A DNA stretch of 64,000 nucleotides from an uncultured archaeon (GCA_964363635.1 CAYIIU010000002.1:768-64767); one strand, 5' to 3'; counted from the stretch's first letter, positions 50,160 to 62,475 are shown. The notes: a model not told the origin generated them from the letters alone. Made by a program: numbers and translations.

Positions 50160-50166
50160 TGTAAAA

Positions 50167-50514: not shown

Positions 50515-50552
50515 AATTTTAAACAAAAGAAAAATGTCTTAATGTGGAGATT

Positions 50553-50828
50553 ATGAAAACGCATCTACTCGATCCAAAGCAAGTCGCACTCAGTTTAGGA
50601 ATAACGGCAGCAATTGTTCATGCGGTTTGGTCGTTTATTCTTCTAATCGGAGCAGGAAATACGGTGATGAGTACATGGCATCGTCTTTGCTCGTACCAAA
50701 TGCCTTTCCAAGTTCTCCCATTTGATTTGGGAATTGCCATCATTGGATTCATAAGCACGTTAATTCTCTTTGCTGGGCTTGGGTGGTTGTTTGCGTTTGT
50801 TTGGAATTCCATTCAATCAAACCAGTAG
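50553..50828 (+). CDS. Three-TM hypothetical membrane protein
   Basis: I prefer ATG 50553 over the track GTG 50544. A TTTTAAAC box lies about 30 nt upstream. Confidence 0.5.
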   Translation: MKTHLLDPKQVALSLGITAAIVHAVWSFILLIGAGNTVMSTWHRLCSYQMPFQVLPFDLGIAIIGFISTLILFAGLGWLFAFVWNSIQSNQ

Positions 50829-50869
50829 TTAGGAAAGTTGTTTAAGTCGAAACGGGTGAGGAATAGTGC

Positions 50870-51148
50870 GTGACCATTTCAAAACAATTAATGTATTGGC
50901 TGATTGCCAGCTCGAAAGGAGGATTAAACCGAACCAGAATCATTTTAGCCCTGAAAGAAAAACCAATGAATCTCCATCAACTCGCCGAAAAAATGAATGT
51001 GCACTATACCACGATACAACATCACGTGGAATTGTTGGTCAAGCACGGTTTTCTGGTAGGGACAGGCGGAGAATATGGAAAAGCGTATTTTTTATCACAA
51101 GACTTAGAGGATGCTTATCATGAATTCAAAAAAATCACTAACCAATAA
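50870..51148 (+). CDS. ArsR-family winged-helix regulator
   Basis: RTRIILALKEKPMNLHQLAEKMNVHYTTIQHHVELLVKHGFLV. Confidence 0.7.
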   Translation: MTISKQLMYWLIASSKGGLNRTRIILALKEKPMNLHQLAEKMNVHYTTIQHHVELLVKHGFLVGTGGEYGKAYFLSQDLEDAYHEFKKITNQ

Positions 51149-51551
51149 GAATGAAACAACAAGTGGAAACGCGGCCTTTCAAGCGCTTGCGATAGCCGTT
51201 TTACTTGGCCTCGCCATTTTCTGGGCATCCATCTTTCTCGGATTTAACAAGCCTCATTTGTGGCTCATGCACCAACAATACATCCTCATCGAAATAATCA
51301 TCTCAAGCATCAATACCATTTTACTCGTTTATTTGCTGTCCAATTATTTAGAAATATATTCAACGGCTAAAACAAATTTTACCATTGGACTAATCATCCT
51401 AGCCGCAGGATTGCTCGCCCATTCGATTACAGCCAATCCCCTCTTTTACATGCACTTAGGTTACATGCCAATGAGCGGACCCTTCATGTTCGTCCCCTCC
51501 ATTTTCACGTTTATCGCAGTAATGGCCCTCACCTATCTCACCAAACAATGA
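51111..51551 (+). CDS. Four-TM hypothetical membrane protein
   Basis: 146 aa with four hydrophobic helices. It overlaps the end of the arsR-like gene. Confidence 0.5.
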   Translation: MLIMNSKKSLTNKNETTSGNAAFQALAIAVLLGLAIFWASIFLGFNKPHLWLMHQQYILIEIIISSINTILLVYLLSNYLEIYSTAKTNFTIGLIILAAGLLAHSITANPLFYMHLGYMPMSGPFMFVPSIFTFIAVMALTYLTKQ

Positions 51552-51565
51552 ACCGTAACTCTTTT

Positions 51566-51597
51566 TCGGATTAATTTCGGACATACCTCGGAAAAAA
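51566..51597 (+). promoter_or_regulatory. TTCGGA-N-TCGG motif copy b
   Basis: TCGGATTAATTTCGGACATACCTCGGAAAAAA is followed by CTAATTAAAAC. Confidence 0.45.
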
Positions 51598-51639
51598 CTA
51601 ATTAAAACAATCAACAACACGTTGTCGAGGTGATTTGAA

Positions 51640-51753
51640 ATGAAAATTATTCAAGTGATTCGAGCTGGAGGGTTGGAAGACCCCCATGAATATTTGAAAT
51701 ACGTCAATCGCAAAGTCAGATTGGAACGCACTTCCCGATCTGGTTTAGCGTAG
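51640..51753 (+). CDS. Possible 37-aa small protein (not in the ORF track)
   Basis: My translation is MKIIQVIRAGGLEDPHEYLKYVNRKVRLERTSRSGLA. It is preceded by GAGGTGAT 5 nt upstream and by a TAATTAAAAC box. Confidence 0.25.
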   Translation: MKIIQVIRAGGLEDPHEYLKYVNRKVRLERTSRSGLA

Positions 51754-51762
51754 GAGAAAAAA

Positions 51763-51960
51763 ATGGACATGAAACCTGAAAAAATAATTCTATGGTCGCT
51801 AGTGGTCATTGCCATTCTCGCATTAACTTACTTTGTAGACAGTCGATTTTCCTATTTACTTTTCACATTCGCCATGTTCGTAGGATGTATGGGCATGCAT
51901 GGGAGCCATTCTCATGAGAAAACGACTCAAATAGAAAAAGAAAATCAACACCAACACTAA
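51763..51960 (+). CDS. Small membrane protein with a His-rich tail
   Basis: Two TM helices, then CMGMHGSHSHEKTTQIEKENQHQH. Confidence 0.5.
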   Translation: MDMKPEKIILWSLVVIAILALTYFVDSRFSYLLFTFAMFVGCMGMHGSHSHEKTTQIEKENQHQH

Positions 51961-51970
51961 AAAAATTGGT

Positions 51971-51994
51971 GAATTTCGGATTGTTTTCGGAAAA
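51971..51994 (+). promoter_or_regulatory. TTCGGA-N-TTCGG motif copy c
   Basis: GAATTTCGGATTGTTTTCGGAAAA is followed by CTCTTTAAACC. Confidence 0.45.
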
Positions 51995-52092
51995 TGCTCT
52001 TTAAACCAAAAAAAGAAAGGAGTATTTTACCAAAAAGGGAGGTGGTTTATATGAGAAAAGAAAAAAGAAAAACAGGAGGTGAACCGTGGAAA

Positions 52093-52335
52093 ATGAAACC
52101 GTGGGTTCCACTTGGGATAATCGGATTGCTCGCGATTGCAGCTACTTTCGCGTACGCTCAAACTCCAGGGTCCGACAACTCAACGGATTGGACAACCATG
52201 CACGCCTACATGCAAAAGGCCATGAACAGCCCGCAAGAAATGCAAAAAATGATGGAAGCATGCGAAAATGAAATGGGCGACCATTCGAACCAATCCAATG
52301 ACAAAACCCCCAACAATCACATGGGAATGATGTAG
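52093..52335 (+). CDS. Secreted Met/His-rich small protein (putative metal-binding)
   Basis: The start is chosen after AGGAGGTGA. The signal peptide is MKPWVPLGIIGLLAIAATFAYAQ, and the mature part is rich in Met and His (MHAYMQKAM..QEMQKMMEACENEMGDH..NNHMGMM). Confidence 0.55.
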   Translation: MKPWVPLGIIGLLAIAATFAYAQTPGSDNSTDWTTMHAYMQKAMNSPQEMQKMMEACENEMGDHSNQSNDKTPNNHMGMM

Positions 52336-52488
52336 AAAAAAGGCTCACCAGAAAAAGGAAAGATGGACAGCGTCCCCCTCGTCCGACCAACTGCCCATCT
52401 CCCCTCTTATCATAAAAAGACTCGGCGAGAAGTGATACGCAATGGCTATTGGGAAAAAACTCGAAAAAATGCAACCCCATCACAGTCA

Positions 52489-52977
52489 TCAAGTGATTAA
52501 TCGTACGTCTAACATTGCGTCAACGAAATTATCGAGTTGTTCGATGGGGATTACGATTCCCCCTATGGGTTCCGAGTGTTCGTGTTGGTCTTTTAGAAGT
52601 TCCTGAATGAGAACCATATGTCCATTTTCGTTTTTGATTTCAGTAAAGCAGTAGGTTTTGTTTCCAATTTCTTTTTCTCTAATATCAATAATGTCTTTGA
52701 TTTTGAGGAATTGTTCGTACATCGTTACTTCCCCAACTTGGAAGGCGTGAACGCTGCGGATTGAAACGAGATAGTCTAAGTGGGGTTGTATGATCTCAAT
52801 GGGCATATCGGCCGCCGCATGGCTGATTTGACTTATGGATAACGCTGGATTTCGAGTCAAAATAGAATGAAGAATGACCAAAACATATTCCCATTTCTGA
52901 TCGACCGACATTCGTTCGTATTCTCCTTGTACAAAAATGTATGTGGATAGGCCTGCTGAAATATTTTTAGAGGGCAT
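52489..52977 (-). CDS. Hypothetical protein (possible wHTH N-terminus)
   Basis: 162-aa ORF. ILHSILTRNPALSISQISHAAADMPIEIIQPHLDYLVS is wHTH-like. Confidence 0.45.
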   Translation of the reverse strand: MPSKNISAGLSTYIFVQGEYERMSVDQKWEYVLVILHSILTRNPALSISQISHAAADMPIEIIQPHLDYLVSIRSVHAFQVGEVTMYEQFLKIKDIIDIREKEIGNKTYCFTEIKNENGHMVLIQELLKDQHEHSEPIGGIVIPIEQLDNFVDAMLDVRLIT

Positions 52978-53027
52978 GATGGAACTCCTTTAGCAAGGTA
53001 TAAACGGCTATGTTCAATAATGCCTAA

Positions 53028-53168
53028 TTATTCAGTGCTGGGCATATCCGTTTTTCGCTTCAATTCCTGGTATTTCTCGTACTCTTCCAAAAAGTACAAG
53101 AAAGTCTTGGAATGCAATTTCTTGAAATCCGCTAAATCTTTCTTTACACGTTGAGTTTGTATCTGCAT
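53028..53168 (-). CDS. Possible 46-aa small protein (not in the ORF track)
   Basis: My translation is MQIQTQRVKKDLADFKKLHSKTFLYFLEEYEKYQELKRKTDMPSTE, preceded by GAGGTGAT. Confidence 0.25.
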   Translation of the reverse strand: MQIQTQRVKKDLADFKKLHSKTFLYFLEEYEKYQELKRKTDMPSTE

Positions 53169-53224
53169 TGGCAAAGCCAATCACCTCAACTAAACGCACT
53201 GTTGTCAGGCGGTTAATATATGTT

Positions 53225-53267
53225 TTGTCCGATTTGTCTGGATTTTTCGGACAAAAACCATATAAGC
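53225..53267 (+). promoter_or_regulatory. Inverted repeat plus TATA-like box upstream of the VirB2-like gene (motif copy d)
   Basis: TTGTCCGA-N14-TCGGACAA (53225-53255) contains ...GGATTTTTCGGACAAAAA and is followed by CCATATAAGC. A second box, TTAATATATG, lies at 53213-53222. Confidence 0.45.
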
Positions 53268-53315
53268 AACCTCCAAAGGGTGTGAATTAGAGAAACTTAT
53301 TGGGAGGAAAAAAAG

Positions 53316-53615
53316 ATGAAGAAAAATCTAGGAATAATGTTAGCAGTATTGTTGCTCGGTTCGTTTGTGGCTGCGCAAACACCAGGGAATATTACCACCA
53401 TTACGGAGCCCATCAATCGAATCTATGATTTAGTCAAAGCTGTCGTATCCATTTTGGGAATCATCGCCATTACTATCGCTGGAGCCCACTATATGTTTTC
53501 GGGAAGCAATATTCAGACCCGTGAAAACGCCAAATCGATGGCATCGTATGCGGTCGTAGGATTAGTGCTGGTATGGGTTGCCCCGTTAGTTGTAACCTAT
53601 CTCACCGCCCCCTAG
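53316..53615 (+). CDS. TrbC/VirB2-like conjugative pilin candidate
   Basis: 99 aa. The signal peptide is MKKNLGIMLAVLLLGSFVAAQ, followed by two hydrophobic helices separated by a short polar loop (YMFSGSNIQTRENAKS). It is the first gene of the T4SS-like cluster. Confidence 0.6.
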   Translation: MKKNLGIMLAVLLLGSFVAAQTPGNITTITEPINRIYDLVKAVVSILGIIAITIAGAHYMFSGSNIQTRENAKSMASYAVVGLVLVWVAPLVVTYLTAP

Positions 53616-53619
53616 GGAG

Positions 53620-54660
53620 ATGATCCGGTCTATGAAAAAACTCTACGAAATCCTACTCCCACTCTTCATTACCGGACTTCTCTTCGTCACGCCCAGCGTA
53701 CACGCCCAAGGAGGTGGAAGCGGTGGTGGAGTCATCAACATTAACATCGATGTACAGGGAATTATCAATGCGATCAATGGTCTCGGCTTCGGATTAGGCG
53801 GAACACTCGGAAATATTCCAAGTCAAGTGCTGGGTATTTTTGGGAACGCATTCAAAGGTTCATTAATCTCATTCAACGATCCGCTCATGCAATTCTCCCA
53901 AACATTACTTACATCCAACCCCGACCCAAACGGACTTTATCCATGGTGGCAATCGACCATCTTAGTCATTTCATCGTTCTATCTCTTGCTCTTCCTTGTG
54001 ATTGGATTCATGTTTCTCTTTTCGTCCATCAATCCCGAGAAACGAATGGAAGCGAAAGAGTGGCTCAAGAATGCCTTCGTGATGATTGTTCTCGTCAATT
54101 TGTCCTTCGTATTGTATTCGTTAATCTTGGAATTAGCGACTGCCATTACCCAATTCATGTGGATTAGCGGTTTCCAAAACTTTTTCGACCCACAAGTATT
54201 TTCCAACATGGGCGCCGGAATGTTGCTGACATACGGTTTAGCGGTTTTACTTACTGCCGTAACATTATTCCTTCGACACATTTTCCTTCTCATTGGAGTC
54301 GTTCTCTTTCCCATCGCCATTTTCCTCTACTTTGTTCCTCCACTAAAAGTTTGGGGCCGAATGATATTCAACCTCATCGGCATCGCACTATTCACACAAT
54401 TTATTGACGTAGTCATTTTTGTTGCGAGCAATCAAGCCATGATTCAATTTGCAGGAAACGCGGGCGCAAATAGTGTTCCCGCTCTCGCATTCATTCTCAT
54501 CTTCATTGTGAATGTTCTTCTCATGGTTTACGCCGTGCTGAAATCTGTTTTCAGTATGACTGAAAATTCTAAAGTGTTAGGATATGCGGTTGGCGTCATG
54601 TCCGGGCAAATTAGTACGGCACTATCTGGCCTAAAGTTGGGCGCGGGGAGCGCGAAGTAG
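53620..54660 (+). CDS. VirB6/TrbL/CedA-like polytopic membrane protein
   Basis: 346 aa with a signal-like N-terminus, a Gly-rich exposed segment (QGGGSGGGVININ...), and about 6-7 TM helices. Confidence 0.55.
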   Translation: MIRSMKKLYEILLPLFITGLLFVTPSVHAQGGGSGGGVININIDVQGIINAINGLGFGLGGTLGNIPSQVLGIFGNAFKGSLISFNDPLMQFSQTLLTSNPDPNGLYPWWQSTILVISSFYLLLFLVIGFMFLFSSINPEKRMEAKEWLKNAFVMIVLVNLSFVLYSLILELATAITQFMWISGFQNFFDPQVFSNMGAGMLLTYGLAVLLTAVTLFLRHIFLLIGVVLFPIAIFLYFVPPLKVWGRMIFNLIGIALFTQFIDVVIFVASNQAMIQFAGNAGANSVPALAFILIFIVNVLLMVYAVLKSVFSMTENSKVLGYAVGVMSGQISTALSGLKLGAGSAK

Positions 54661-54673
54661 TTGGAGGCGTCCT

Positions 54674-55528
54674 ATGTCGTATGAAATCCCCAAAAACATT
54701 CGTTACCAAGAAAAAGTCGTCTTCAACCTCAGCTTCGAACAATCATTCTGGGTGGCCCTTTTTGGCATCCTAACCTTCACCGTATTCTTCAAACTTCCCC
54801 TTATTTTTGAAGTCCGAATAGCCATCAGCATCTTTTTCGTTATTCTCGCGGTAGGATTTGCCTTTTTTGATTTTCGCACCCGCGCAACCAATTTGTATGC
54901 TTTCATCTCAACCCCACGAGAAATGGGTTATATGGACCCTAAAATGGCCAAATTTTTAGAAATAAATAGAATCGAAAATGACACGGTTTACTTGAATAAT
55001 GGTAGCCTAAAATCCCTCATTCACGTCCAACCCATCAATTTCCACATCCTATCCGTGCGACAAAAGCAAGCCATTATCGCGGCGTACAAAGACTTCCTCA
55101 ACAGCCTAGACTTTCCCATCCAAATCGTCATGCGAACCGTGAGCCTAAACCTAGACGATTACCTCAAGCAACTCGAACTAAAGGTTCGAAAGCAGAAAAA
55201 ACCTCACTTAATCAACCAGTTCGTAGACTTTGAAGCCTTCATGCGAAAATACATCGAAGAAAACAGCGTCAAAAATAGACTATTTTACATCGTCATCCCT
55301 TACACTTCAAGCAAAAATCCCCTTGAAGCCAAAACGAATCCACTCGAACAATTAGAAATTCGCGTGAAACTCTGCCAAGAAAAACTAAAACATTGCAACC
55401 TCATAACGAAAAGACTCTCCACCAACGAACTGACTTCCCTATTAGCATCATACTTTGAAGGATTCATCGAAGCAGAAAACGAATACCAAAAGACACTCGT
55501 TGTTTTACAAAAGGAGGTAGCCAAATGA
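54674..55528 (+). CDS. PrgI/VirB3-like membrane protein with an extended C-terminal domain
   Basis: MSYEIPKNIRYQEKVVFNLSFEQSFWVALFG matches the PrgI-family N-terminus (..P..I....K.v.gLt..Q). Two TM helices follow. A 4-nt overlap links it to the VirB4-like gene. Confidence 0.6.
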   Translation: MSYEIPKNIRYQEKVVFNLSFEQSFWVALFGILTFTVFFKLPLIFEVRIAISIFFVILAVGFAFFDFRTRATNLYAFISTPREMGYMDPKMAKFLEINRIENDTVYLNNGSLKSLIHVQPINFHILSVRQKQAIIAAYKDFLNSLDFPIQIVMRTVSLNLDDYLKQLELKVRKQKKPHLINQFVDFEAFMRKYIEENSVKNRLFYIVIPYTSSKNPLEAKTNPLEQLEIRVKLCQEKLKHCNLITKRLSTNELTSLLASYFEGFIEAENEYQKTLVVLQKEVAK

Positions 55529-57774
55529 AGAACTTAGTTGAGTTGCTAAAACCGTCGTACATTCATAATCAAGCCGATTCTATTCAAGTGAATGAACAAT
55601 TTAACCGTATCATTATGGCTGTAGGCTATCCTCGTGCGATTCGAGAAGGATGGTTAGATTCAATCATTGCGAGTGAGGGAAACTTTGATCTAAGCCTGCA
55701 CATTACTCCCTCAAATGTTGAATCCATTTTAACACAGCTCAATCAAGAGTTAGTCAAGCAAGAAGCCGATTTGATGGGTGCTCAAATGAAGGGAATTGTG
55801 AACCCTTCACTACGATTACAACACCAAGACACGCTGAATGTTTTAGAAAAACTCCAAAAAGGAGAAGAAAAGTTATTCAATCTGTCTCTTTACCTCAATG
55901 CACGAGCCTACACGAAAGACAAGCTCGAATTGCTTACACGAAAAGTTATCACTGAACTCAATTCGATTCTCATTATCCCCAAAATGCCTTTTTTGCGAAT
56001 GTATGATGGACTCAAATCCATTTTTCCCATTCAAGAAGACAAACTAAAAATCACGCGAAACATTCCGAGCGATGCTTTAAGCGCTTGTTTCCCTTTCACT
56101 ACCGCCTTCCTCAATCTGGACAGCGAGGGAATCCTATTCGGGCTAAATAAATCTAACAACATCCCCATTATTCTTGACCCGTACCGTTTTGCCAACTACA
56201 ACGGACTCATTTTAGGAACGTCCGGCAGCGGAAAAAGCGTTACCGCCAAACTATTCATCCTCCGAAACCTATTACGAGGCGTAAAAACAATGATTATTGA
56301 CCCGCAAGGAGAATACGTCGAACTAACCCAAAAATACAATGGTCAAGTCGTCGAAATTTCTCGAGAAAGTGAAACCATCATCAATCCTTTTGATTTAATG
56401 GATCAAGATTTGGGAGAAAAAATGCTCTCCCTAATGGATTTATTCAAAATCATGTGCGGGGACCTCACGGAAGTCCAAAAAAATATTTTAGATAAAGCTA
56501 TGCAGAAAGTGTACGAACAAAAAGGAATCATTTACAACAATCCCGAAACGTGGAACAAAACTCCTCCAATTATGGAAGACTTGTATACCGAGCTTTTGCG
56601 TGAGAAAAAAACAGCCACGAAACAAGAACGAATGACATACGAAGCGTTAGAGAATCGTATCCGCATCTATGCCAAAGGAACGTTTTCATTCATCAACAAG
56701 CAGACAAACCTCGATTTGTCTAATGATTTAATTTGCTTCAACATCGCCCAAATGCCCAACCAAATCAAACCAGTCATGATGTACCTCGTCATGGACTTTG
56801 TTCACAAAAAAATGCAAAAAGACCGAGAGAGAAAAGCGCTCATCATCGACGAAGCATGGACACTTTTACGCTTCGCCGAACACTCCAAACACATTTTCGA
56901 ATTAATTAAAACCGCCCGAAAATTTGGATTAGGAATACTCATCCTCACTCAAGAAGTAGGGGACTTGATTTCGAGCGAAGCGGGAAAAACAATTCTTGCG
57001 AACACCAGCTGGAAGTTTTTAGCGAGACAAGAACCAACCGTCATCGAAGAATTAAGTCAAAAATTCAACCTCAACAGCGAAGAACAAAACTATTTACTGA
57101 CAGCTATGCCTGGAGAAGGATTACTGTTTGCGATGAACGACCACATCCCCCTCAAAGTGGTTCCCTCCCCAAGCGAATACGAACTTATCACCACGAATCC
57201 GGATGAAGTAAAAGCTCGCGAGTTAAAATTCAAAAAGTTAGGTGAGAAAGAGCCGGAGAATATGCATCCATACCAGAAAGAAAAGAAATATTATTTGAAA
57301 AAAGAACTTACGATTGATCAAATAGAGTTTCTCAAGCAAAACGACTACCATGAAATACGATTATGCGGGTTGGACAATTTTTCGCAATGGTATTTAGTCA
57401 AAAAACCAGACTCTAGCGAAAGTTTGGAACACCAATTCATGGTACAAATTATCGCAGATGAAATTCTAAAGCACACGCAAGAAATCAGCATATATGCTAG
57501 CACGGGACCCGACATTCTCGTATGGGTCCCCAAAAAAGATAATCCTGATTTTGGCGAGTCCATTGCTATCGAAATCGAAACAGGTACCCAACTCAAAACA
57601 CCTGGAGATTTAGCGAATAAGGTCGCTCAAAATAACTTCCAAAAATACAAGGAATGGTGGTTTGTCGTAACGAACAAGGATGACAAGAAAGAATACGAAA
57701 AATACCACCAAACCATGACTCGAACAGAGATTAAGCCTTTTTTGGAGCGATTATTTAATGGTAAACCAACATAG
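55525..57774 (+). CDS. VirB4/TraE/CedB-class conjugation ATPase with a C-terminal PD-(D/E)xK-like domain
   Basis: Walker A is LILGTSGSGKSVTAKL and Walker B is KALIIDEAWTLL. GLGILILTQEVGDL is also present. The C-terminal ~140 aa carry ESLEHQF...GPDILVWV...IAIEIETG. Confidence 0.85.
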   Translation: MKNLVELLKPSYIHNQADSIQVNEQFNRIIMAVGYPRAIREGWLDSIIASEGNFDLSLHITPSNVESILTQLNQELVKQEADLMGAQMKGIVNPSLRLQHQDTLNVLEKLQKGEEKLFNLSLYLNARAYTKDKLELLTRKVITELNSILIIPKMPFLRMYDGLKSIFPIQEDKLKITRNIPSDALSACFPFTTAFLNLDSEGILFGLNKSNNIPIILDPYRFANYNGLILGTSGSGKSVTAKLFILRNLLRGVKTMIIDPQGEYVELTQKYNGQVVEISRESETIINPFDLMDQDLGEKMLSLMDLFKIMCGDLTEVQKNILDKAMQKVYEQKGIIYNNPETWNKTPPIMEDLYTELLREKKTATKQERMTYEALENRIRIYAKGTFSFINKQTNLDLSNDLICFNIAQMPNQIKPVMMYLVMDFVHKKMQKDRERKALIIDEAWTLLRFAEHSKHIFELIKTARKFGLGILILTQEVGDLISSEAGKTILANTSWKFLARQEPTVIEELSQKFNLNSEEQNYLLTAMPGEGLLFAMNDHIPLKVVPSPSEYELITTNPDEVKARELKFKKLGEKEPENMHPYQKEKKYYLKKELTIDQIEFLKQNDYHEIRLCGLDNFSQWYLVKKPDSSESLEHQFMVQIIADEILKHTQEISIYASTGPDILVWVPKKDNPDFGESIAIEIETGTQLKTPGDLANKVAQNNFQKYKEWWFVVTNKDDKKEYEKYHQTMTRTEIKPFLERLFNGKPT

Positions 57775-57816
57775 GTTTATATTACAATATTCCTATTATG
57801 GGATAATAGTGATATA

Positions 57817-58449
57817 ATGAGTTATTCGTTGCTAGTCCGAAAACTTCTCGGTCGAGAAAATCGATACATCCCAGACGATGAATTAGCCGCATATTGCAAA
57901 TCGATTGGAATAACCTACACGAAGGCGGTCAATTACTTGGGAAAATACCATTACATTGACCGTATCCTTCGAGGATTCTTCTATATTCCAAGCATCGAAG
58001 AACGAAAACTAAAATCGGGTTTCCCAAACCCTTATGAAGCGATTGCCAAAGCAATGGAATATAAGAAAGTCAAAAACTGGTACTTCGGACTCGAAACGGG
58101 CATTAAACTCAATAACATTACTCATGAATCGTTTACTGTCGACTACGTGGTTTCCGACACAATTTTTCGTCCAAAACCAATTACTATCCTGGGTCGAAAA
58201 GTAAAGTTTGTCAAACTGAAAAAAAATCTCTTTAGCTTCGGCATCATTGAAAACGGAAGCTGGCGTTACTCCGATCTTGAAAAAAGCCTGCTCGACATCA
58301 TTCACATCCGAAAATATAACGGAAAAAGCGACAAAGCCATCATTGACGAGCTCATTGAATGGGGAGAACACGCGTCAAAGAAGAAGCTTAAAGAATATGC
58401 GAAACACTATCCACTATTTGTCCGCAAGGTCGCAGGTGAACTTAGATGA
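57817..58449 (+). CDS. AbiEi-like antitoxin / transcriptional regulator (type IV TA)
   Basis: 210 aa with a 4-nt overlap with the AbiEii-like gene. The N-terminal DDELAAYCKSIGITYTKAVNYLGKYHYIDRILRGFFYIP is wHTH-like. Confidence 0.55.
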   Translation: MSYSLLVRKLLGRENRYIPDDELAAYCKSIGITYTKAVNYLGKYHYIDRILRGFFYIPSIEERKLKSGFPNPYEAIAKAMEYKKVKNWYFGLETGIKLNNITHESFTVDYVVSDTIFRPKPITILGRKVKFVKLKKNLFSFGIIENGSWRYSDLEKSLLDIIHIRKYNGKSDKAIIDELIEWGEHASKKKLKEYAKHYPLFVRKVAGELR

Positions 58450-59474
58450 TTGAAAAAGGACTCATTGACTGGATATCTCGGGACAAGGGGATTGTGAACC
58501 GCGAATTAATCGAAAAAGACCTATTACTCCAAGGATTACTGGTTAGCCTTGCTAAATCCGATTATTTCAAGCGCAATTATGCATTCAAAGGGGGAACCTG
58601 TCTTACCAAAGCCTATTTCGGATACTATCGCTTTTCCGAAGATCTCGATTTTACCTGGATGCACCCCCAAATGTTCGAAAACCTTTCAGGAAAAGGCGTG
58701 AGAAAAAAATTAACCCAAGAAGTCAACCAAATACTAGCCCTACTAGAAACAAGTGCTAAAGAAGTAGGACTCGATTTCAAACCCGAAAAATCAAATGACC
58801 ATTATACTCAATTTGGAGGCGGAAAACGATTCGCCACCTTCAAATGCTGGTACAAATCAACGACTACTGAAAGCGAATCGTTCATCAAAATCCAAATCAA
58901 TTTTGTTGAATTGCTCATATATTCCCCAAAAATAATGGATATAAAACCACTTTACTCTCGGGGATCCCGAGAATTGGAAGTATTATATCCCGATAATAGC
59001 GGCTTAGCAACTCGCCGCGCCGAATTATTTGTATATGACATACGAGAAATAGCAGCTGAAAAAATTCGGGCCATACTCACCCGAAAAGGGATCAAAGCAC
59101 GCGATTATATCGATTTATACATCCTTGACCAAAAGCAGACCCCTATTTCGAGTGTTTTAGAAGCTGCCATGAAAAAGACCCTCTTTATGCTCGACTACGA
59201 AAAATATGCTCAAAACCTTTTTGAAAAGAAATTCGACCAAAAAACAGAATTAGGAAAGGAAGAAAATCTCCTGATAAACCCAGTCGAAAAAGGCTTTCCA
59301 ATCTATACTGAAAAAGCCCAAAAAATACTCGCCAACGCGGCGGAAACCCTGCGAAATGAATACACGAAAACTAAATCATGGAGCGAACTAACCAAACCAT
59401 TGAAAAGAGCCAAAAAGAAAGTACGAGAAGAAGATGTCGTGGATTTAGTTCATCGAATAAGAAAAGAAAAATGA
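58446..59474 (+). CDS. AbiEii/AbiGii-family nucleotidyltransferase toxin
   Basis: YAFKGGTCLTKAYFGYYRFSEDLDFTW is the GG...(S/T)EDLDF NTase core, and a downstream KIRAILTRKGIKARDYIDLY is present. Confidence 0.8.
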   Translation: MIEKGLIDWISRDKGIVNRELIEKDLLLQGLLVSLAKSDYFKRNYAFKGGTCLTKAYFGYYRFSEDLDFTWMHPQMFENLSGKGVRKKLTQEVNQILALLETSAKEVGLDFKPEKSNDHYTQFGGGKRFATFKCWYKSTTTESESFIKIQINFVELLIYSPKIMDIKPLYSRGSRELEVLYPDNSGLATRRAELFVYDIREIAAEKIRAILTRKGIKARDYIDLYILDQKQTPISSVLEAAMKKTLFMLDYEKYAQNLFEKKFDQKTELGKEENLLINPVEKGFPIYTEKAQKILANAAETLRNEYTKTKSWSELTKPLKRAKKKVREEDVVDLVHRIRKEK

Positions 59475-59486
59475 GATGAGAAATAA

Positions 59487-59837
59487 TCATTCAATGTGAA
59501 TAAAACTCTTAATTTTTTCATTCATCTGCAACTTTTTACGAAGAACGACCTCGACTTGATCCAAATATCCTTTTTCTAACTCTAATTGCTCGCGAGTGTA
59601 AGATAGCCGCGGATAAAATTGGAAAACAAAATCATTGATACTCTCTTTTCGTTTGCGAATAACCACACAATCATACCTAGACAAATTTTCTTTACTGGTT
59701 TTTGAAAAAACCTCGAAAAATGAGTCCAAAAAATAGCGACAGGTGATTTGAGTGTGGGAGCGAATCTCCTCTTTAGAGGGTTTTGGATTATTGAAGAGAT
59801 AACCGACTTCCAAATATACGACATTTTCAGATGCCAT
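59487..59837 (-). CDS. Hypothetical protein
   Basis: 116-aa ORF with no recognised motif. Confidence 0.4.
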   Translation of the reverse strand: MASENVVYLEVGYLFNNPKPSKEEIRSHTQITCRYFLDSFFEVFSKTSKENLSRYDCVVIRKRKESINDFVFQFYPRLSYTREQLELEKGYLDQVEVVLRKKLQMNEKIKSFIHIE

Positions 59838-59945
59838 GCCCGTGATAGAAACTCATTCTTAATAAAACTGGAGTTTACGAATTATGCAGGTTAAATAGTC
59901 GAATACTAGCGAAGCTATAAAAATATGATAATGTGATAATTAAGT

Positions 59946-60917
59946 ATGTTCACCAAAAAAATTTTGGCAGTTGCAGTCATCACAAGTCTCTTTTCTGTTG
60001 GTCTATTGCTGGTTGCTTTTGCCCCATCTATTGAAGCTCAAAGCACATTAACAGCCCAATTGATAATCGCGCTAATTAACAAGCCAAAAATCTATCAAGT
60101 CATTCAAACAGACCCCTATCAAAAAGACGCTTTCTGCAATAAGACAAGGGATGTTTTGCTGTATGCATACTGTGAAGGGAATGAAATAAGTAACATTGCT
60201 TCGCCCGGAAATACTAATCCACTTCGCAAACCAATAATGTTTGACTTTTTTACTGACGGAGAATTTGCTACTAATCCTTGGTGGTATTCGGAAACCCCTT
60301 CAAGCGATTGGAACGTTTTCAATCAAGAATTAACAATGGCCCAACCCAATTCAAATGCCACCCTACACACTGTTCTAGGCCCAAGCGCTGGCCCACTTCC
60401 TTTTACGGATGAAACATTCTGGTCGTTCAAGGCAAAAATAGTCGGACCAAATGGGGCAACTGCCTACTATCGTTTTGTCAAAAATGGAACATTGAGCATA
60501 CCAAAAGGGTATAGTCTTGTTGCAACGATTGGTGGGAATTGGCAACTCATTTACCAAGATTACGTGAATCCAGGAATAATGGTTAGCAGAAACATGATTG
60601 TTTCAAACACCCAAGTATCTTCGGGACAAACCTACAATATGACAATACGCCGTGATAACACTGGACTGTTTTCATGGACCATAGATGGAAACCCTATTGG
60701 AGCTGCGCAAGATAATAACTTTTCGAGCATGAACCTTTTTGGAGTTCAAACAGGGAGTACGCCAGTCGAATTACATTTAGATGATGTCAATATTTCAATC
60801 ACCGATTTTAGCCACATGCCTTCAGGCTTCTTCAATCTGAACGATTGGAACAATTCAAGCGGAGTTCGATGCCAATATCCTGGTACAGCAAGACTGGTTT
60901 GTATAAGCCAAACATAG
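59946..60917 (+). CDS. Secreted hypothetical protein (beta-rich)
   Basis: The signal peptide is MFTKKILAVAVITSLFSVGLLLVAFAPSIEAQ. The mature part has a beta-strand-like composition. Confidence 0.55.
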   Translation: MFTKKILAVAVITSLFSVGLLLVAFAPSIEAQSTLTAQLIIALINKPKIYQVIQTDPYQKDAFCNKTRDVLLYAYCEGNEISNIASPGNTNPLRKPIMFDFFTDGEFATNPWWYSETPSSDWNVFNQELTMAQPNSNATLHTVLGPSAGPLPFTDETFWSFKAKIVGPNGATAYYRFVKNGTLSIPKGYSLVATIGGNWQLIYQDYVNPGIMVSRNMIVSNTQVSSGQTYNMTIRRDNTGLFSWTIDGNPIGAAQDNNFSSMNLFGVQTGSTPVELHLDDVNISITDFSHMPSGFFNLNDWNNSSGVRCQYPGTARLVCISQT

Positions 60918-60995
60918 CCAGCGATCCACCGCCAACTGTTAGCACGAACCGCATAACAGGTCGGCACTTTTAAAGTTCGCCCGCGTGACATTCTC

Positions 60996-61886
60996 ATGGG
61001 TTCTATTAAACGTCCTCGTTCCCGAGGAAAGATTAAGCCGGGAATGGTGGCGGTTGGAGGCGTTTTATTTCGGCGGGGTGAACCGCGCGAGAATGTGATT
61101 GCCTATTTCTTGAAGCGTTACGGAAGTGAACTTGGGATTACAACTTTCGATCAAATGGAACGCGTCTTGTTTGTGAAAACGAGGGGCAGTCATCCTAATT
61201 TCGCTGAACTATTTGAAAATAAGTCAAGGGATGACGTTACCAAAAGTTATCACGAATGGGTGCGAAAAAGAGAAGAACGAGCCGCAAACATTCGAGCGTC
61301 AATAGCCAAACGATTGTCTGATCCACTTGTGCGTCAAACTGTCAGCGACCGCTCGAAAAGGGTCATGGGAGAATTACACCGCGACCCAACCTTTGTGTCA
61401 AAACAATCGGCCAGCGCCTCAAAAACGTTGAAACTATGGCGAAATGATCCAGAAGGGAGAAAGCAGTATACACAACACATGCGCGCATTGCGTTCTGACC
61501 CCGGTTGGAATCAAAAACTTTCAGAAAACGTTAGTATGGGCATGCATGAACGATGGTTGGCATCGCGAAAGAAAAAGATGAATGAAATAATAGAAGATGG
61601 CGCGCTTCACGTTGAAGAATTTTCTGGAAACCGATGGGGAAAAAGACGAGCTCGAATCTTAGTAGCCGGGCCCCCTACCACATGGCGAACAACCCAAGAA
61701 GTTCAGCGAGTCCAACGAACACTTACCCGATTAACGGATATTGAACGAGAAGCTATCATCCAACTATTCTTCGACAAGCGTCCCATTTCAAAAGTTGCCA
61801 AAAGCCTCAACCAACCAGAAAAGACTATTTACCAAATCGTGGGGCCTGCCTACAAGAAGATAATGAGAGCATTCAGGGGGCAATAG
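60996..61886 (+). CDS. Basic protein with a sigma-70 region-4-like HTH at the C-terminus
   Basis: LTRLTDIEREAIIQLFFDKRPISKVAKSLNQPEKTIYQIVGPAYKKIMRAF follows the L..re..v..l.y....s..eIA..l......v......A..kl pattern. Confidence 0.55.
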   Translation: MGSIKRPRSRGKIKPGMVAVGGVLFRRGEPRENVIAYFLKRYGSELGITTFDQMERVLFVKTRGSHPNFAELFENKSRDDVTKSYHEWVRKREERAANIRASIAKRLSDPLVRQTVSDRSKRVMGELHRDPTFVSKQSASASKTLKLWRNDPEGRKQYTQHMRALRSDPGWNQKLSENVSMGMHERWLASRKKKMNEIIEDGALHVEEFSGNRWGKRRARILVAGPPTTWRTTQEVQRVQRTLTRLTDIEREAIIQLFFDKRPISKVAKSLNQPEKTIYQIVGPAYKKIMRAFRGQ

Positions 61887-61943
61887 GAGATATTCTGAGA
61901 AATTGTTCAAATAAATCTAATCCAATGGTTTAAACATATTTTC

Positions 61944-62465
61944 TTGATAAAGAATCGTATGAAGAAAGAACCAATCACAATTAATGAATTTGGCCAGATT
62001 TTCAAAAACGAAGCGTTGATGGACGCTACTCTCACAGTGATTTTAAGTATTGTATCAATTGTCAGCTTTGCCATACATCCGCTTCTATCCATTATCCCAC
62101 TAATGATTGAAGGAAAACTTGTTTATGGGATGTCAAAAAAATTTGATCAAAGAAACAGAATTGGAAAAATTTTCGAAGATTTATCCCGAAAAGAAGGAAA
62201 CATTACGCGTGCTGCAATTCAAATATATCAAGCAAAAGAAGAAATTGATAAAACCCGTAAAGAAATAGGAGAAATCAAGGAAAAAATATTTGACGCATTC
62301 AATTCTTCAGGATTTAACCCTATTGAGAAACGAATTGGTAAATTAGAAAAAGAAATGGAAAAGTTTGAAGAAAAAATAATTGGAAGGACTCATTACAGCG
62401 GTTTTCATTCGCTTGCTGAAAGAGTAAAAAATATCGAAGAACAATTGAACAACTTTAGAAGATAA
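61944..62465 (+). CDS. Membrane-anchored coiled-coil protein
   Basis: Two N-terminal TM helices, then heptad-like KEEIDKTRKEIGEIKEKIF...KLEKEMEKFEEKI. Confidence 0.5.
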   Translation: MIKNRMKKEPITINEFGQIFKNEALMDATLTVILSIVSIVSFAIHPLLSIIPLMIEGKLVYGMSKKFDQRNRIGKIFEDLSRKEGNITRAAIQIYQAKEEIDKTRKEIGEIKEKIFDAFNSSGFNPIEKRIGKLEKEMEKFEEKIIGRTHYSGFHSLAERVKNIEEQLNNFRR

Positions 62466-62475
62466 AAAAAATTCA

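What the first reader, a model, noticed from the sequence alone, without database searches (positions are those of the whole stretch)
57349..57774. VirB4-like ATPase carries an extra C-terminal domain resembling a PD-(D/E)xK nuclease
After the ATPase core, the last ~140 aa read ...DSSESLEHQFMVQIIADEILKH..ISIYASTGPDILVWVPKK...GESIAIEIETGTQL...EWWFVVT. The order is a helix with a conserved E, then a beta strand with PD, then a beta strand with E-x-E/T. That is the topology of restriction-endonuclease-fold domains, although the canonical Lys is replaced (EIET). A nuclease or DNA-recognition module fused to the secretion ATPase could substitute for the missing relaxase or process incoming DNA.
Basis: inference. 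Interest (0 to 1): 0.65.

Follow-up and report, generated by a model that had tools for sequence, protein, structure and literature searches.

The report
Relaxase-like nuclease domain on VirB4
The motor protein of a DNA/protein transfer machine in a tiny (DPANN-type) archaeon carries a conserved DNA-cutting domain at its tail that resembles the unusual BamHI-like "MOBC" relaxases of bacterial plasmids, which could explain how archaea with no known relaxase prepare DNA for transfer.

Summary
ORF 55525-57774 (+) encodes a 749-aa VirB4-type ATPase. Its last ~165 residues form an extra domain with no match in Pfam, NCBIfam, PHROGs or PADLOC.

AlphaFold models (pLDDT 83-88) give a small beta-alpha-beta-beta subdomain followed by the alpha-beta-beta-beta-alpha-beta core of PD-(D/E)xK nucleases. 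The best solved neighbours are BamHI and OkrAI, then Can2, MspJI and VRR-NUC.

The domain defines a family of at least 524 clusters, found almost only in DPANN archaea. H636, D663 and E685 are invariant, and E683 is always E or D. The "missing" Lys is Glu in every member, as in BamHI.

This D-E-E site, a BamHI-like fold and a preceding winged-helix remnant are the published hallmarks of MOBC relaxases. hhalign against a MobC profile gives 81% probability (P=1.3e-5; shuffled controls P>=0.09).

In 91 species genomes the domain is fused to the VirB4 C-terminus 60 times. Otherwise it is free or membrane-tethered, usually right after a tyrosine integrase at tRNA-linked islands.

Best reading, which is an inference: a relaxase-like DNA-processing nuclease built into a minimal, relaxase-less T4SS. 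The fold is well supported. The function is untested.

The parts
55525..57774 (+). Whole gene: VirB4-type T4SS ATPase with extra C-terminal domain (749 aa)
   Evidence: ORF. NCBIfam conju_CD1110 8.7e-95 over residues 8-558 (318.6 bits, cut-off 325), VirB4_plasma 1.6e-82, CedB 6.7e-15. Pfam P-loop_TraG, DUF87 and AAA_10. Walker A (GTSGSGKS) and Walker B (LIIDEAW) are readable in the translation. The identical protein occurs on two ENA Hainich groundwater contigs.
55525..57225 (+). VirB4 N-terminal domain plus P-loop ATPase (residues 1 to ~567)
   Evidence: Profile matches end at residues 558-567.
57277..57405 (+). Small N-terminal subdomain of the tail (residues ~585-627): beta-alpha-beta-beta, probable winged-helix remnant
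   Evidence: AF2 model has strand 14-16, helix 22-30 and strands 33-38 and 46-51 in tail numbering, at pLDDT ~90. The consensus L..E..YL...GY......G....YL.KP is conserved family-wide. hhalign aligns it on the recognition helix and wing of the MobC winged helix.
57406..57771 (+). PD-(D/E)xK-like core (residues 628-749): alpha1-beta1-beta2-beta3-alpha2-beta4-alpha3-beta5-alpha4
   Evidence: Core-only AF2 model has pLDDT 87.8 and pTM 0.81. Foldseek PDB top hits are BamHI (1bam, E=1.1e-2, prob 0.92), OkrAI, Cdn1, VRR-NUC, Avs4, Ecl18kI and EcoO109I. The BFVD search returns restriction endonuclease, VRR-NUC and Mrr-like proteins, best E=2.6e-4.
57418..57432 (+). E632 (92% conserved), S633 and H636 (invariant) at the start of helix alpha1
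   Evidence: Conservation over 131 representatives; coordinates verified. H636 aligns with the invariant H114 of MobC.
57508..57513 (+). P662-D663: 'PD' at the start of strand beta2 (D invariant)
   Evidence: Aligns with the invariant P147-D148 of MOBC relaxases.
57565..57585 (+). A681-I-E683-I-E685-T686-G687: the E-x-E strand beta3 (E685 invariant; E683 is E or D in all)
   Evidence: Aligns with MOBC A159-x-E161-x-E163-R-T. Same Glu-for-Lys substitution as BamHI E111/E113 (PMC3025578).
57619..57621 (+). K699 on helix alpha2 (K 95%, R 5%), a candidate relocated basic residue
   Evidence: Role is inferred only.
54674..55528 (+). PrgI/VirB3-like membrane protein with TraC-like region; overlaps the ATPase start by 4 nt
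   Evidence: Pfam PrgI 4e-8; precomputed PrgI plus TraC-like. In six of the ten longest homologues this module is fused to the N-terminus of VirB4.
53620..54660 (+). VirB6/TrbL-like polytopic membrane protein
   Evidence: Precomputed Pfam TrbL_3. Conserved upstream of VirB4 in 28 of 60 fused loci.
53316..53615 (+). VirB2/TrbC-type T4SS pilin
   Evidence: Pfam T4SS_pilin 1.2e-14 and TrbC 2.1e-9.

Best explanation
The tail of this VirB4 ATPase is a metal-dependent DNA endonuclease domain of the PD-(D/E)xK superfamily. Its active site is of the BamHI type: (E/H)...PD...E-x-E, with no Lys. A remnant of a winged-helix DNA-binding module precedes it. This is the same domain plan and the same D-E-E site as the MOBC class of conjugative relaxases (CloDF13 MobC, pAD1 TraX), to which it is probably distantly related. 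Because it is joined by a short linker to the C-terminal, cytoplasmic ATPase domain, up to six copies would hang under the cytoplasmic entrance of a minimal T4SS (VirB2 pilin, VirB6, VirB3/PrgI, VirB4). That system has no separate relaxase or coupling protein. Proposed mechanism (inferred): the domain binds and cuts or nicks the DNA to be moved, creating the end that the motor feeds into the channel. In effect it is a relaxase built into the motor. The free and membrane-tethered paralogues are encoded directly after tyrosine integrases at tRNA-linked islands. They would do the same job for integrated elements that lack their own T4SS, like the integrase-plus-relaxase modules of bacterial mobilizable elements. 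Shown: the domain, its predicted fold, its conservation, its distribution and its gene neighbourhoods. Inferred: catalysis, the substrate, and the role in transfer.
For: Fold: two AF2 models (pLDDT 82.9 and 87.8) have the alpha-beta-beta-beta-alpha-beta core, with PD at the start of beta2 and E-x-E on beta3. Foldseek's top named hits are nearly all PD-(D/E)xK nucleases in PDB and BFVD. With the core-only model the top six are BamHI entries plus Cdn1, with OkrAI at rank 13.

Active site: H636, D663 and E685 are invariant, E683 is always E or D, E632 is 92% conserved and K699 is 95% conserved, across 131 representatives of 50%-identity clusters. BamHI and OkrAI cut DNA with E...D...E-x-E and two metal ions (PMC3025578).

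MOBC link: the literature describes MOBC relaxases as PD-(D/E)XK enzymes with a D-E-E motif, BamHI-like structure and an N-terminal winged HTH (PMC6736028; PMC12857230). hhalign of the domain profile against a 12-sequence MobC profile gives probability 80.6%, P=1.3e-5, over 91 columns. H, PD and A-x-E-x-E are in register and the N-subdomain falls on the wHTH wing. Core-only gives 56.7% and a 217-sequence profile gives 53.6%. Controls: reversed profile P=0.75; best of 30 column shuffles P=0.09. The HMMER MOBC profile hits domain members at up to 23.4 bits (E=2.9e-7), against 4.7 bits for reversed sequences. The D-to-E spacing has a median of 10 residues in both families.

Context: ten of the ten longest carriers are VirB4. 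In 91 species genomes, 60 copies are fused, always at the C-terminus of VirB4. No relaxase, T4CP or integrase was found among the ORFs scanned in the 40-64 kb part of the window. Free forms: all seven contexts retrieved by exact-protein look-up, and 16 of 24 assessable GTDB contexts, have a tyrosine integrase or its remnant directly upstream on the same strand, often overlapping. Three of the seven also have a tRNA gene just before the integrase. The membrane-tethered forms have two TM helices followed by a K/R-rich segment and a coiled coil, which places the domain in the cytoplasm at the membrane.

Open question addressed: no relaxase is known on archaeal conjugative elements (PMC12857230 section 23; PMC6563490).
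Against: No structural hit in the PDB reaches E<=1e-3 (best 6.5e-3 and 1.1e-2). The fold call therefore rests on the coherence of many weak hits plus topology and motifs.

The MOBC similarity is remote. hhalign probability is 54-81%. The HMMER alignments cover only the ~38-residue beta2-beta3 hairpin. Pfam Replic_Relax does not hit any member at E<0.1. Shared motifs could be convergence within one superfamily.

No oriT-like repeat set was found near the cluster. There is no coupling protein to hand DNA to the channel. It is not known that DPANN T4SS-like systems move DNA at all. Related systems in Patescibacteria are thought to serve host interaction or uptake (PMC12102498; bioRxiv 10.64898/2026.06.21.733656).

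No Tyr equivalent to TraX Y181 could be established: Y724 is 96% Y but F in the rest.

A nuclease permanently attached to a DNA motor could equally degrade DNA. Integrase-adjacent positions are also common sites for defence cargo.
Confidence: 0.45

Rival explanations
1. Entry or scavenging nuclease. The T4SS-like machine imports host nucleic acid (Ced-like import or parasitic feeding). The nuclease at the cytoplasmic mouth cuts or degrades the incoming polymer, either to release one strand or to yield nucleotides for an organism that cannot make them. This would be analogous to membrane-bound EndA/NucA of bacterial competence.
For: The host is an archaeon of DPANN type (RNaseP_arch; relatives are Woese-, Pace-, Nano- and Micrarchaeota). 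The gene set (pilin, VirB6, VirB3, VirB4, no relaxase or T4CP) equals the Ced/Ted import set (PMC9905601). Patescibacterial T4SSs lacking relaxases are proposed to serve uptake or host interaction. The nuclease sits on the cytoplasmic side, where imported DNA would emerge. One member gives a weak Pfam hit to the competence protein CoiA nuclease domain (0.038).
Against: This does not explain why free paralogues are coupled, often by overlapping reading frames, to tyrosine integrases at tRNA-linked islands. The conserved winged-helix remnant and the BamHI/MOBC-type site suggest recognition of specific DNA rather than bulk degradation. No import has been shown for any DPANN T4SS.
Confidence: 0.22
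2. Defence or exclusion nuclease. This would be a restriction-like enzyme carried by mobile elements that destroys incoming foreign DNA at the membrane. When fused to VirB4, it would police DNA arriving through the channel (entry exclusion).
For: The closest solved folds are restriction enzymes and defence nucleases: BamHI, MspJI, McrC, Can2/Card1/Cdn1 and Avs4. The free forms are the first cargo gene after the integrase in accessory islands that also hold Fic, HEPN/Polbeta and MazE genes. An AbiEi/AbiEii pair follows the gene in the window. DNA methyltransferase genes lie near 10 of 60 fused loci.
Against: There are no hits to 5,027 defence-system models apart from one marginal PDC-M15A match for a single member. 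No methyltransferase homologue is present in the window, and most loci have none nearby. A restriction enzyme welded to an essential secretion ATPase has no precedent known to me. The strict same-strand adjacency or overlap with the integrase suggests co-function rather than hitch-hiking cargo.
Confidence: 0.13
3. Non-catalytic module. A degenerate PD-(D/E)xK fold that has lost the catalytic Lys and serves only to bind DNA, to oligomerise, or to dock partner proteins on VirB4.
For: The canonical Lys is absent in every member. Inactive PD-(D/E)xK domains are common (own knowledge; for example the RPB5-type domain that appears among the fold hits, 8q3b_E).
Against: Three acidic residues and a His are invariant or nearly so across >130 divergent representatives. 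That pattern is expected for a metal site, not for a scaffold. The same Glu-for-Lys site is fully active in BamHI and OkrAI, and reverting it to Lys cripples BamHI (PMC3025578).
Confidence: 0.1
4. Recombination accessory factor. The family's primary role would be to assist the neighbouring tyrosine integrase, as a directionality factor or Holliday-junction resolvase. The VirB4 fusion would be a secondary recruitment.
For: Tight integrase-domain gene pairs. One member gives a weak Pfam hit to AHJR-like resolvase-type nucleases (0.025). A Holliday junction resolvase appears among the BFVD fold hits.
Against: Two thirds of sampled copies (60 of 91) are on VirB4, and only 5 of those 60 have an integrase within the 8-kb loci. 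Membrane tethering of many free forms makes no sense for a recombination cofactor.
Confidence: 0.1

Closest known systems
MOBC-family conjugative relaxases (CloDF13 MobC, pAD1 TraX; Pfam PF13814 Replic_Relax)
   Same: Both belong to the PD-(D/E)xK superfamily and have a D-E-E metal site with no Lys. BamHI is the nearest solved structure for both. Both have a DNA-binding winged helix directly N-terminal to the catalytic core. The invariant H...PD...A-x-E-x-E motifs align in register with an identical D-to-E spacing. Both are encoded with T4SS genes or on integrated or mobilizable elements.
   Different: There is no Pfam PF13814 hit for the window's tail, and PF13814 is absent from the listed member hits down to E~0.1. 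Only the last helix and wing of the wHTH are recognisable. E-T-G follows the second Glu instead of E-R-T. The domain is fused to the VirB4 motor or to a 2-TM/coiled-coil anchor, whereas MOBC relaxases are free soluble proteins that work with a coupling protein. It is archaeal (DPANN), not bacterial. No oriT is known.
BamHI / OkrAI type II restriction endonucleases
   Same: They are the top Foldseek PDB hits for the core model. The catalytic pattern is the same: Glu (before or on helix 1), Asp (beta2), and Glu-x-Glu (beta3) in place of (D/E)xK (PMC3025578).
   Different: Sequence identity is 13-16% and E-values are ~1e-2. No cognate methyltransferase is present in the window. The context is a secretion motor or an integrase, not an R-M operon.
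Motor-plus-nuclease machines of the HerA/FtsK and AAA+ world (HerA-NurA, McrBC)
   Same: A hexameric NTPase that handles DNA is combined with a nuclease. VirB4 belongs to the HerA/FtsK superfamily (DUF87/HerA hits). McrC is among the fold hits. HerA-NurA-type resection has been suggested as the source of ssDNA for archaeal Ted import (PMC9905601).
   Different: In those systems the nuclease is a separate subunit (NurA has an RNase H fold), and the machines act in repair or restriction, not at a membrane channel.
Ced/Ted DNA-import systems of Crenarchaeota and the relaxase-less T4SS of Patescibacteria
   Same: The minimal gene set is the same (VirB2-like pilin, VirB6-like channel, VirB4-like ATPase), and there is no relaxase.
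   Different: CedB/TedB and patescibacterial VirB4 are not reported to carry a nuclease domain. CedB matches the window protein only weakly (6.7e-15, 54.7 bits against a cut-off of 700).
Integrative mobilizable elements (integrase + relaxase modules) of bacteria
   Same: The free paralogues form a tRNA | tyrosine integrase | nuclease gene | cargo layout. This mirrors the minimal integrase-plus-relaxase mobilisation module.
   Different: Mobilisation has not been shown. No oriT was identified. The elements are archaeal.
SPEARE giant proteins of nanohaloarchaea
   Same: They are also DPANN proteins containing a VirB4/TraG-like ATPase, and a restriction endonuclease domain was once claimed for them (PMC10266531).
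   Different: That claim was re-examined and rejected (no endonuclease domain found). Here the nuclease-like domain is supported by fold, motif conservation and profile comparison, and it occurs in ordinary-sized VirB4 proteins.

Membership tests
PD-(D/E)xK (restriction-endonuclease-like) superfamily | Core fold alpha-beta-beta-beta-alpha-beta with a mixed sheet | tested here: met
   AF2 models at pLDDT 82.9 and 87.8 show H-E-E-E-H-E in this order. Foldseek's top named hits in PDB and BFVD are PD-(D/E)xK nucleases, though each is weak (best 6.5e-3, 1.1e-2 and 2.6e-4). This is a predicted structure, not an experimental one.
PD-(D/E)xK (restriction-endonuclease-like) superfamily | Acidic residue at the start of beta2 (PD) and acidic residue on beta3 | tested here: met
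   P662 is 86% conserved and D663 100%. E683 is E in 94% and D in 6% of 131 representatives.
PD-(D/E)xK (restriction-endonuclease-like) superfamily | Lys two residues after the beta3 acidic residue ((D/E)xK) | tested here: not met
   Glu (E685) occupies this position in 131 of 131 members. This is the known, rare BamHI/OkrAI/BtsCI variant, which is catalytically active (PMC3025578).
MOBC relaxases (Pfam PF13814 Replic_Relax) | Match to the family's sequence model | tested here: not met
   There is no Pfam hit at E<=1 for the window's tail. PF13814 is not among the listed hits of the 43 scanned members. MobC itself scores 8.2e-22.
MOBC relaxases (Pfam PF13814 Replic_Relax) | Remote homology detectable by profile-profile comparison | tested here: inconclusive
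   hhalign gives probability 80.6% (P=1.3e-5), 56.7% and 53.6% with three query profiles. Controls give P>=0.09. HMMER reaches 23.4 bits against 4.7 bits for reversed sequences. This is above noise but below the level usually taken as proof. No library-wide HHpred ranking was possible.
MOBC relaxases (Pfam PF13814 Replic_Relax) | D-E-E metal-binding motif and invariant His on helix 1 | tested here: met
   Family H636 / D663 / E683 / E685 correspond to MobC H114 / D148 / E161 / E163. All are invariant in their alignments and align in register.
MOBC relaxases (Pfam PF13814 Replic_Relax) | N-terminal winged helix-turn-helix that binds oriT | tested here: inconclusive
   Only a beta-alpha-beta-beta subdomain is present. 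hhalign aligns its helix and hairpin on the last helix and wing of MobC's wHTH. No HTH Pfam hit was found.
MOBC relaxases (Pfam PF13814 Replic_Relax) | Site-specific nicking at an oriT; required for transfer | not testable with these tools
   This needs biochemistry or genetics. The repeat scan of flanking intergenic DNA found nothing convincing.
MOBC relaxases (Pfam PF13814 Replic_Relax) | Works with a type IV coupling protein (VirD4/MobB-like) | tested here: not met
   No T4CP was found among the ORFs scanned in the 40-64 kb part of the window. The domain is fused to VirB4 instead.
VirB4 family T4SS ATPases | VirB4 N-domain plus P-loop ATPase with Walker A/B, encoded with VirB2/VirB3/VirB6 homologues | tested here: met
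   Pfam P-loop_TraG scores 96.2 bits against a cut-off of 25.8. NCBIfam conju_CD1110 scores 318.6 bits, just under its 325 cut-off. Walker motifs are readable. Pilin, TrbL_3-like and PrgI-like genes lie directly upstream.
Type II restriction-modification system | Adjacent cognate DNA methyltransferase | tested here: not met
   The window has no homologue of the methyltransferases seen near some related loci. Only 10 of 60 fused loci have one within 8 kb.
Known anti-phage defence systems (PADLOC-DB) | Match of the domain to a defence-protein model | tested here: not met
   The tail and three of four free paralogues give no hits. One member has a marginal 9.5e-4 hit to PDC-M15A.

The most novel reading that the evidence does not exclude
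This family is the long-sought archaeal conjugative relaxase, in a form never seen in bacteria. It would be a BamHI/MOBC-type nickase welded to the VirB4 motor, so that DNA recognition, cutting and pumping are done by one polypeptide in a four-gene transfer machine. Its free, integrase-coupled copies would define a large, unrecognised population of mobilizable genomic islands in DPANN archaea.
Probability: 0.35. Interest if true: 0.85.

Novelty: new variant of a known kind. Interest (0 to 1): 0.72.

Why it matters
Archaeal conjugative plasmids and ICEs have VirB4 and sometimes VirD4 but no recognisable relaxase. How their DNA is cut and fed into the channel is an acknowledged open question (PMC12857230, PMC6563490). 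DPANN archaea and CPR bacteria carry minimal, relaxase-less T4SS-like clusters whose cargo is unknown.

A conserved, apparently active, MOBC/BamHI-like nuclease physically attached to the motor gives a concrete, testable candidate for the DNA-processing step. It also argues that these machines handle DNA.

The domain is small (~165 aa), and soluble standalone versions exist. Nicking or cleavage assays and crystallography are therefore feasible without cultivating the organism.

The integrase-coupled paralogues offer a marker for finding mobile islands in DPANN genomes. The family deserves a Pfam/arCOG entry: it has at least 524 clusters and currently no annotation at all.

Tried and rejected
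1. Direct sequence searches of the tail against Pfam, NCBIfam, PHROGs, PADLOC and PDB sequences gave nothing. The PDB profile search returned only chance ubiquitin and PCNA matches on the short 'AIEVE' strand.

2. The first k-mer-based homologue search found only four close fragments. The exhaustive profile search was needed.

3. The search for related loci could not derive a search pattern from two alignments. I replaced it with a hand-written degenerate DNA pattern, which samples only about a fifth of the family. Proportions such as 60 of 91 fused therefore describe that sub-sample.

4. I looked for VirB4 or T4SS genes next to the free paralogues and found none within 10 kb. They are not simply split VirB4 genes.

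5. I considered that short family members were all VirB4 fragments. About 33 of 83 are, but roughly 50 have unrelated TM/coiled-coil N-termini.

6. Two apparent 'N-terminal' domain placements (L040, L069) were parsing artefacts.

7. An NJ tree to ask whether fused and free domains are separate clades was unresolved: they interleave and the signal is weak.

8. The repeat search for an oriT near the cluster was not convincing.

9. The CloDF13 reference record (NC_002119) has a frameshifted mobC region. I used a clean relative instead.

10. Iyer et al. 2004 and Francia et al. 2013 are not in the held library. Statements about TraX are taken from papers that cite them.

11. The restriction-modification reading was rejected as the main explanation because the window has no methyltransferase.
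Full report
**1. The observation**

The window holds an ORF at 55525-57774 (+) of 749 aa. Residues 8-558 match VirB4-type conjugation ATPases. NCBIfam conju_CD1110 scores 8.7e-95 (318.6 bits against a cut-off of 325), VirB4_plasma 1.6e-82 and TraC 2e-45. CedB matches only weakly at 6.7e-15. Pfam gives P-loop_TraG 2.2e-27, DUF87 and AAA_10. Walker A (GTSGSGKS) and Walker B (LIIDEAW) are intact in the translation.

The last ~175 residues match nothing in Pfam, NCBIfam, PHROGs, PADLOC or PDB sequences.

The gene is the last of a co-directional cluster:
- a VirB2/TrbC-type pilin (53316-53615);
- a VirB6/TrbL-like membrane protein (53620-54660);
- a PrgI/VirB3-like protein (54674-55528), which overlaps the ATPase start by 4 nt.

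The host is an archaeon, shown by archaeal RNase P RNA at 39321-39576. The identical protein is encoded on two independent contigs from Hainich groundwater filtrates, so the fusion is not an assembly artefact.

**2. What the tail is**

An AlphaFold2 model of residues 576-749 has pLDDT 82.9 and pTM 0.81. It shows a small beta-alpha-beta-beta subdomain followed by alpha-beta-beta-beta-alpha-beta-alpha-beta-alpha. A second model of the core alone (residues 627-749), built on a 37-sequence alignment, has pLDDT 87.8 and the same topology. 'PD' sits at the start of beta2 and 'E-x-E' on beta3, as in restriction-endonuclease-like enzymes.

Foldseek results:
- Whole tail against the PDB: Can2, MspJI, AspBHI, McrC, Card1, Ecl18kI, MUS81, XPF and EcoO109I (best E=6.5e-3, probability 0.96).
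- Whole tail against viral predicted structures: 'restriction endonuclease', VRR-NUC, Mrr-like, Holliday junction resolvase and DUF2726 (best E=2.6e-4).
- Core-only model against the PDB: BamHI entries take six of the top eight places (1bam E=1.1e-2, probability 0.92) and OkrAI is rank 13. Cdn1, VC1899, Avs4, VRR-NUC, Ecl18kI, Kpn2I, EcoO109I and McrC are also listed.

No single PDB hit is strong. The set is coherent, however, and the topology and motif positions agree. Scanning 43 divergent members one by one against Pfam gave only sporadic weak hits. Six of these families are, by my own classification, restriction-endonuclease-like: DUF4143, VRR_NUC, RE_HaeIII, AHJR-like, CoiA_nuc and HSDR_N_2.

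**3. Conservation**

An exhaustive profile search of 1.84 billion cluster representatives found 524 proteins at E<=1e-3 and 300 at E<=1e-10. Conservation across 131 near-full-length representatives, each standing for a 50%-identity cluster:

| Residue | Conservation |
|---|---|
| H636 | 100% |
| D663 | 100% |
| E685 | 100% |
| E683 | 94% E, 6% D |
| E632 | 92% |
| T686 | 92% |
| G687 | 95% |
| K699 | 95% (rest R) |
| F666 | 97% |
| Y724 | 96% |

The position where canonical enzymes have Lys is Glu in every member. This is a known active variant, not a degenerate site. BamHI (E77, D94, E111, E113) and OkrAI use it with two metal ions. Glu at that position is rare among restriction enzymes, and changing it to Lys cripples BamHI (PMC3025578). 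The window's protein has a 7-residue insertion (NPDFGES) in the beta2-beta3 loop that only a few close relatives share.

**4. Distribution and architectures**

The ten longest family members are all VirB4-type ATPases with the domain at the extreme C-terminus. Six also carry an N-terminal PrgI/VirB3 module. About 33 of the 83 shorter members with an N-terminal extension of at least 40 residues are VirB4 fragments. About 50 have an unrelated N-terminus of two hydrophobic helices, a K/R-rich segment and a long charged coiled-coil-like stretch. A further ~40 of the top 150 are standalone proteins of 156-200 aa. By the positive-inside rule the tethered forms place the domain in the cytoplasm at the membrane, which is where the VirB4 C-terminus also sits (the rule and the VirB4 topology are established knowledge).

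A degenerate DNA pattern for PDI[VI]F-x7-AIE[VI]ETG found 91 sites in one-genome-per-species GTDB contigs. All 91 are true members. The organisms are Woese-, Pace-, Nano-, Micr- and Iainarchaeota. Six bins are labelled Methanosarcinales and two are labelled bacterial, and the GC content of those loci is like that of the rest. Sixty of the 91 are fused to VirB4, always C-terminally, with a median of ~13 residues between the two profile matches. No CPR or Ced/Ted carrier was seen. No named annotation exists for any member, and the papers held here do not describe the domain.

**5. Genomic context of the free forms**

Seven free or tethered members on long contigs were looked up. In all seven, the gene lies directly downstream of a ~390-420-aa tyrosine integrase on the same strand, often overlapping it (in one case a 91-aa remnant, matching the integrase profile at E=9e-12). 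No T4SS genes lie within 10 kb. In three of the seven, a tRNA gene lies just upstream of the integrase. This gives the classical tRNA | int | gene | cargo layout of an integrated island.

In the GTDB sample, 16 of 24 assessable free copies have such an integrase or a fragment of one directly upstream. Fused copies keep the pilin and VirB6 genes upstream (28 of 60 loci) and often a ~420-aa secreted protein (19 loci). The window itself has no integrase of this family and no second copy of the domain. No relaxase or coupling protein was found among the ORFs scanned in its 40-64 kb part.

**6. Comparison with MOBC relaxases**

The D-E-E site and BamHI-like fold match what is published for MOBC relaxases. 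They belong to the PD-(D/E)XK superfamily and use a D-E-E motif. TraX of pAD1 is structurally similar to BamHI and carries an N-terminal winged HTH. No covalent DNA intermediate has been detected (PMC6736028; PMC12857230).

I fetched a clean CloDF13-type MobC of 243 aa. PLSDB types its plasmid as MOBC, and it matches Pfam Replic_Relax at 8.2e-22 plus HTH_27. From it I built a 12-sequence MOBC alignment. Its invariant residues are H114, P147-D148 and A159-x-E161-x-E163-R-T.

Results of the comparison:
- hhalign of the 43-sequence domain profile against the MOBC profile: probability 80.6%, P=1.3e-5, 91 columns. H, PD and A-x-E-x-E are in register, and the N-terminal subdomain falls on the last helix and wing of MobC's winged helix.
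- Core-only profile: 56.7%. A 217-sequence profile: 53.6%.
- Controls: the reversed MOBC profile gives P=0.75, and the best of 30 column shuffles gives P=0.09.
- HMMER with the MOBC profile reaches 23.4 bits (E=2.9e-7 in 217 sequences) against 4.7 bits for reversed sequences. The alignments cover only the beta2-beta3 hairpin.
- The D-to-E spacing has a median of 10 residues in both families.

I conclude that the family works like, and is probably distantly related to, MOBC relaxases. It fails the family's own sequence model, so I do not file it as a member.

**7. Most likely mechanism**

*Shown:* a conserved, confidently predicted PD-(D/E)xK-fold domain whose residues match the BamHI/MOBC-type metal site. 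It is tethered to the cytoplasmic end of the T4SS motor or to the membrane, or encoded beside integrases.

*Inferred:* it cuts DNA. In the fused form it supplies the DNA end that the VirB4 motor feeds into a four-component channel lacking relaxase and coupling protein. The free copies do the same for excised islands, by analogy with integrase-plus-relaxase modules of bacterial mobilizable elements. I put this at ~0.45.

*Rivals:* an entry or scavenging nuclease for imported host nucleic acid (0.22); a defence or exclusion nuclease (0.13); a non-catalytic DNA-binding or docking module (0.10); an integrase accessory factor (0.10). The integrase coupling and membrane tethering weigh against scavenging and against an accessory-factor role respectively. 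The absence of methyltransferases and defence-model hits weighs against restriction. The invariant acidic triad weighs against a dead domain.

**8. Novelty and significance**

The PD-(D/E)xK fold and PD-(D/E)xK relaxases are known. New here are an unannotated family of at least 524 clusters, its fusion to VirB4, its membrane-tethered and integrase-coupled forms, and its confinement to DPANN archaea.

[quoted passage not shown] They also note that DNA processing in Ced/Ted is unresolved (PMC9905601). An earlier claim of a restriction endonuclease domain in VirB4-containing nanohaloarchaeal giant proteins was later rejected (PMC10266531). That makes a well-supported nuclease on DPANN VirB4 noteworthy. 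The hypothesis can be tested directly in vitro.

**9. Limits**

- The structures are predictions.
- The Foldseek E-values are weak.
- The MOBC link is remote, and could not be ranked against all families because no HHpred library was available.
- The GTDB survey samples only members that have one exact motif spacing.
- The TM and coiled-coil calls were made by eye and a crude script.
- No oriT was found.
- It is not known what DPANN T4SS-like systems transport.

Noticed in passing
L001 8038-10840; L006 8241-10858; L007 8383-10555; L008 8748-10891; L009 533-2267; L010 8609-10885; L002 9671-10579: Free and membrane-tethered members of the domain family form a conserved two-gene module with a ~390-420-aa tyrosine integrase directly upstream on the same strand (often overlapping; in L002 only a 91-aa remnant). 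In three cases a tRNA gene lies just before the integrase. This looks like the edge of tRNA-integrated islands in DPANN genomes.
   Followed up: partly
window 57817-59474: A complete AbiEi (PADLOC 1e-53) / AbiEii (3.2e-58) toxin-antitoxin or abortive-infection pair starts 42 nt after the ATPase stop. A 13-nt inverted repeat (57787-57815) lies in the spacer and may be the AbiEi operator or a terminator.
   Followed up: partly
window 50001-64000: G+C content drops to 0.37-0.43 in this region, against 0.44-0.49 over most of 4-48 kb, and GC skew changes sign. The T4SS cluster may lie in a foreign or accessory island, but no integrase of the island type was found in the window.
   Followed up: partly
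P0005 (359 aa): This protein joins the VirB4 N-terminal domain (42% identical to window residues 1-193) directly to the nuclease-like domain, with the whole P-loop ATPase missing. It could be a deletion variant or a chimeric assembly.
   Followed up: no
L050 6687-7334, L028 4835-6298 and other fused loci: A small DPPY-motif DNA methyltransferase lies within 8 kb of the VirB4-nuclease gene in 10 of 60 fused loci, and HsdM-like genes in a few more. None is present in the window.
   Followed up: partly
L063 2614-3870 and 18 other fused loci: A ~420-aa N- and T-rich protein with an N-terminal signal-like and a C-terminal hydrophobic segment is conserved upstream of VirB4 in 19 fused loci. It is absent from the window and may be a surface or adhesin component of the machine.
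   Followed up: no
L059, L069, L070, L080, L088, L089 (labelled 'uncultured Methanosarcinales'); L022 (Babeliales); L048 ('bacterium'): Eight family members sit in bins not labelled DPANN. Their GC (0.27-0.47) resembles the DPANN loci. This could be mis-binning, a labelling problem or symbiont-to-host transfer.
   Followed up: partly
window 53207-53272: An imperfect 26-nt inverted repeat (73% complementary, 14-nt loop) lies ~45 nt upstream of the pilin gene, in the only sizeable intergenic region of the cluster. It could be a promoter or operator, or a candidate transfer-origin hairpin.
   Followed up: no
window 41844-42851: A T2SSE-family (PilB/VirB11/FlaI-like) secretion ATPase (Pfam 9.8e-28) lies 11 kb upstream of the T4SS cluster. 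It is unclear whether it belongs to a type IV pilus system or cooperates with the VirB4 machine.
   Followed up: no
window 43144-45173 (-) and 46750-47562 (-): A multicopper oxidase (three Cu-oxidase domains), a cupredoxin-like protein and a DsbA/thioredoxin-like protein form an extracytoplasmic redox gene group unrelated to the finding.
   Followed up: no
window 39321-39576 (-): Archaeal RNase P RNA (Rfam RF00373, 113 bits) identifies the host as an archaeon. tRNA-Ser, tRNA-Arg and tRNA-Leu lie at 15.4, 21.7 and 37.4 kb.
   Followed up: yes
L008 406-4293: A DEAD-box helicase gene near one integrase-nuclease module is interrupted by an intein with a LAGLIDADG endonuclease.
   Followed up: no
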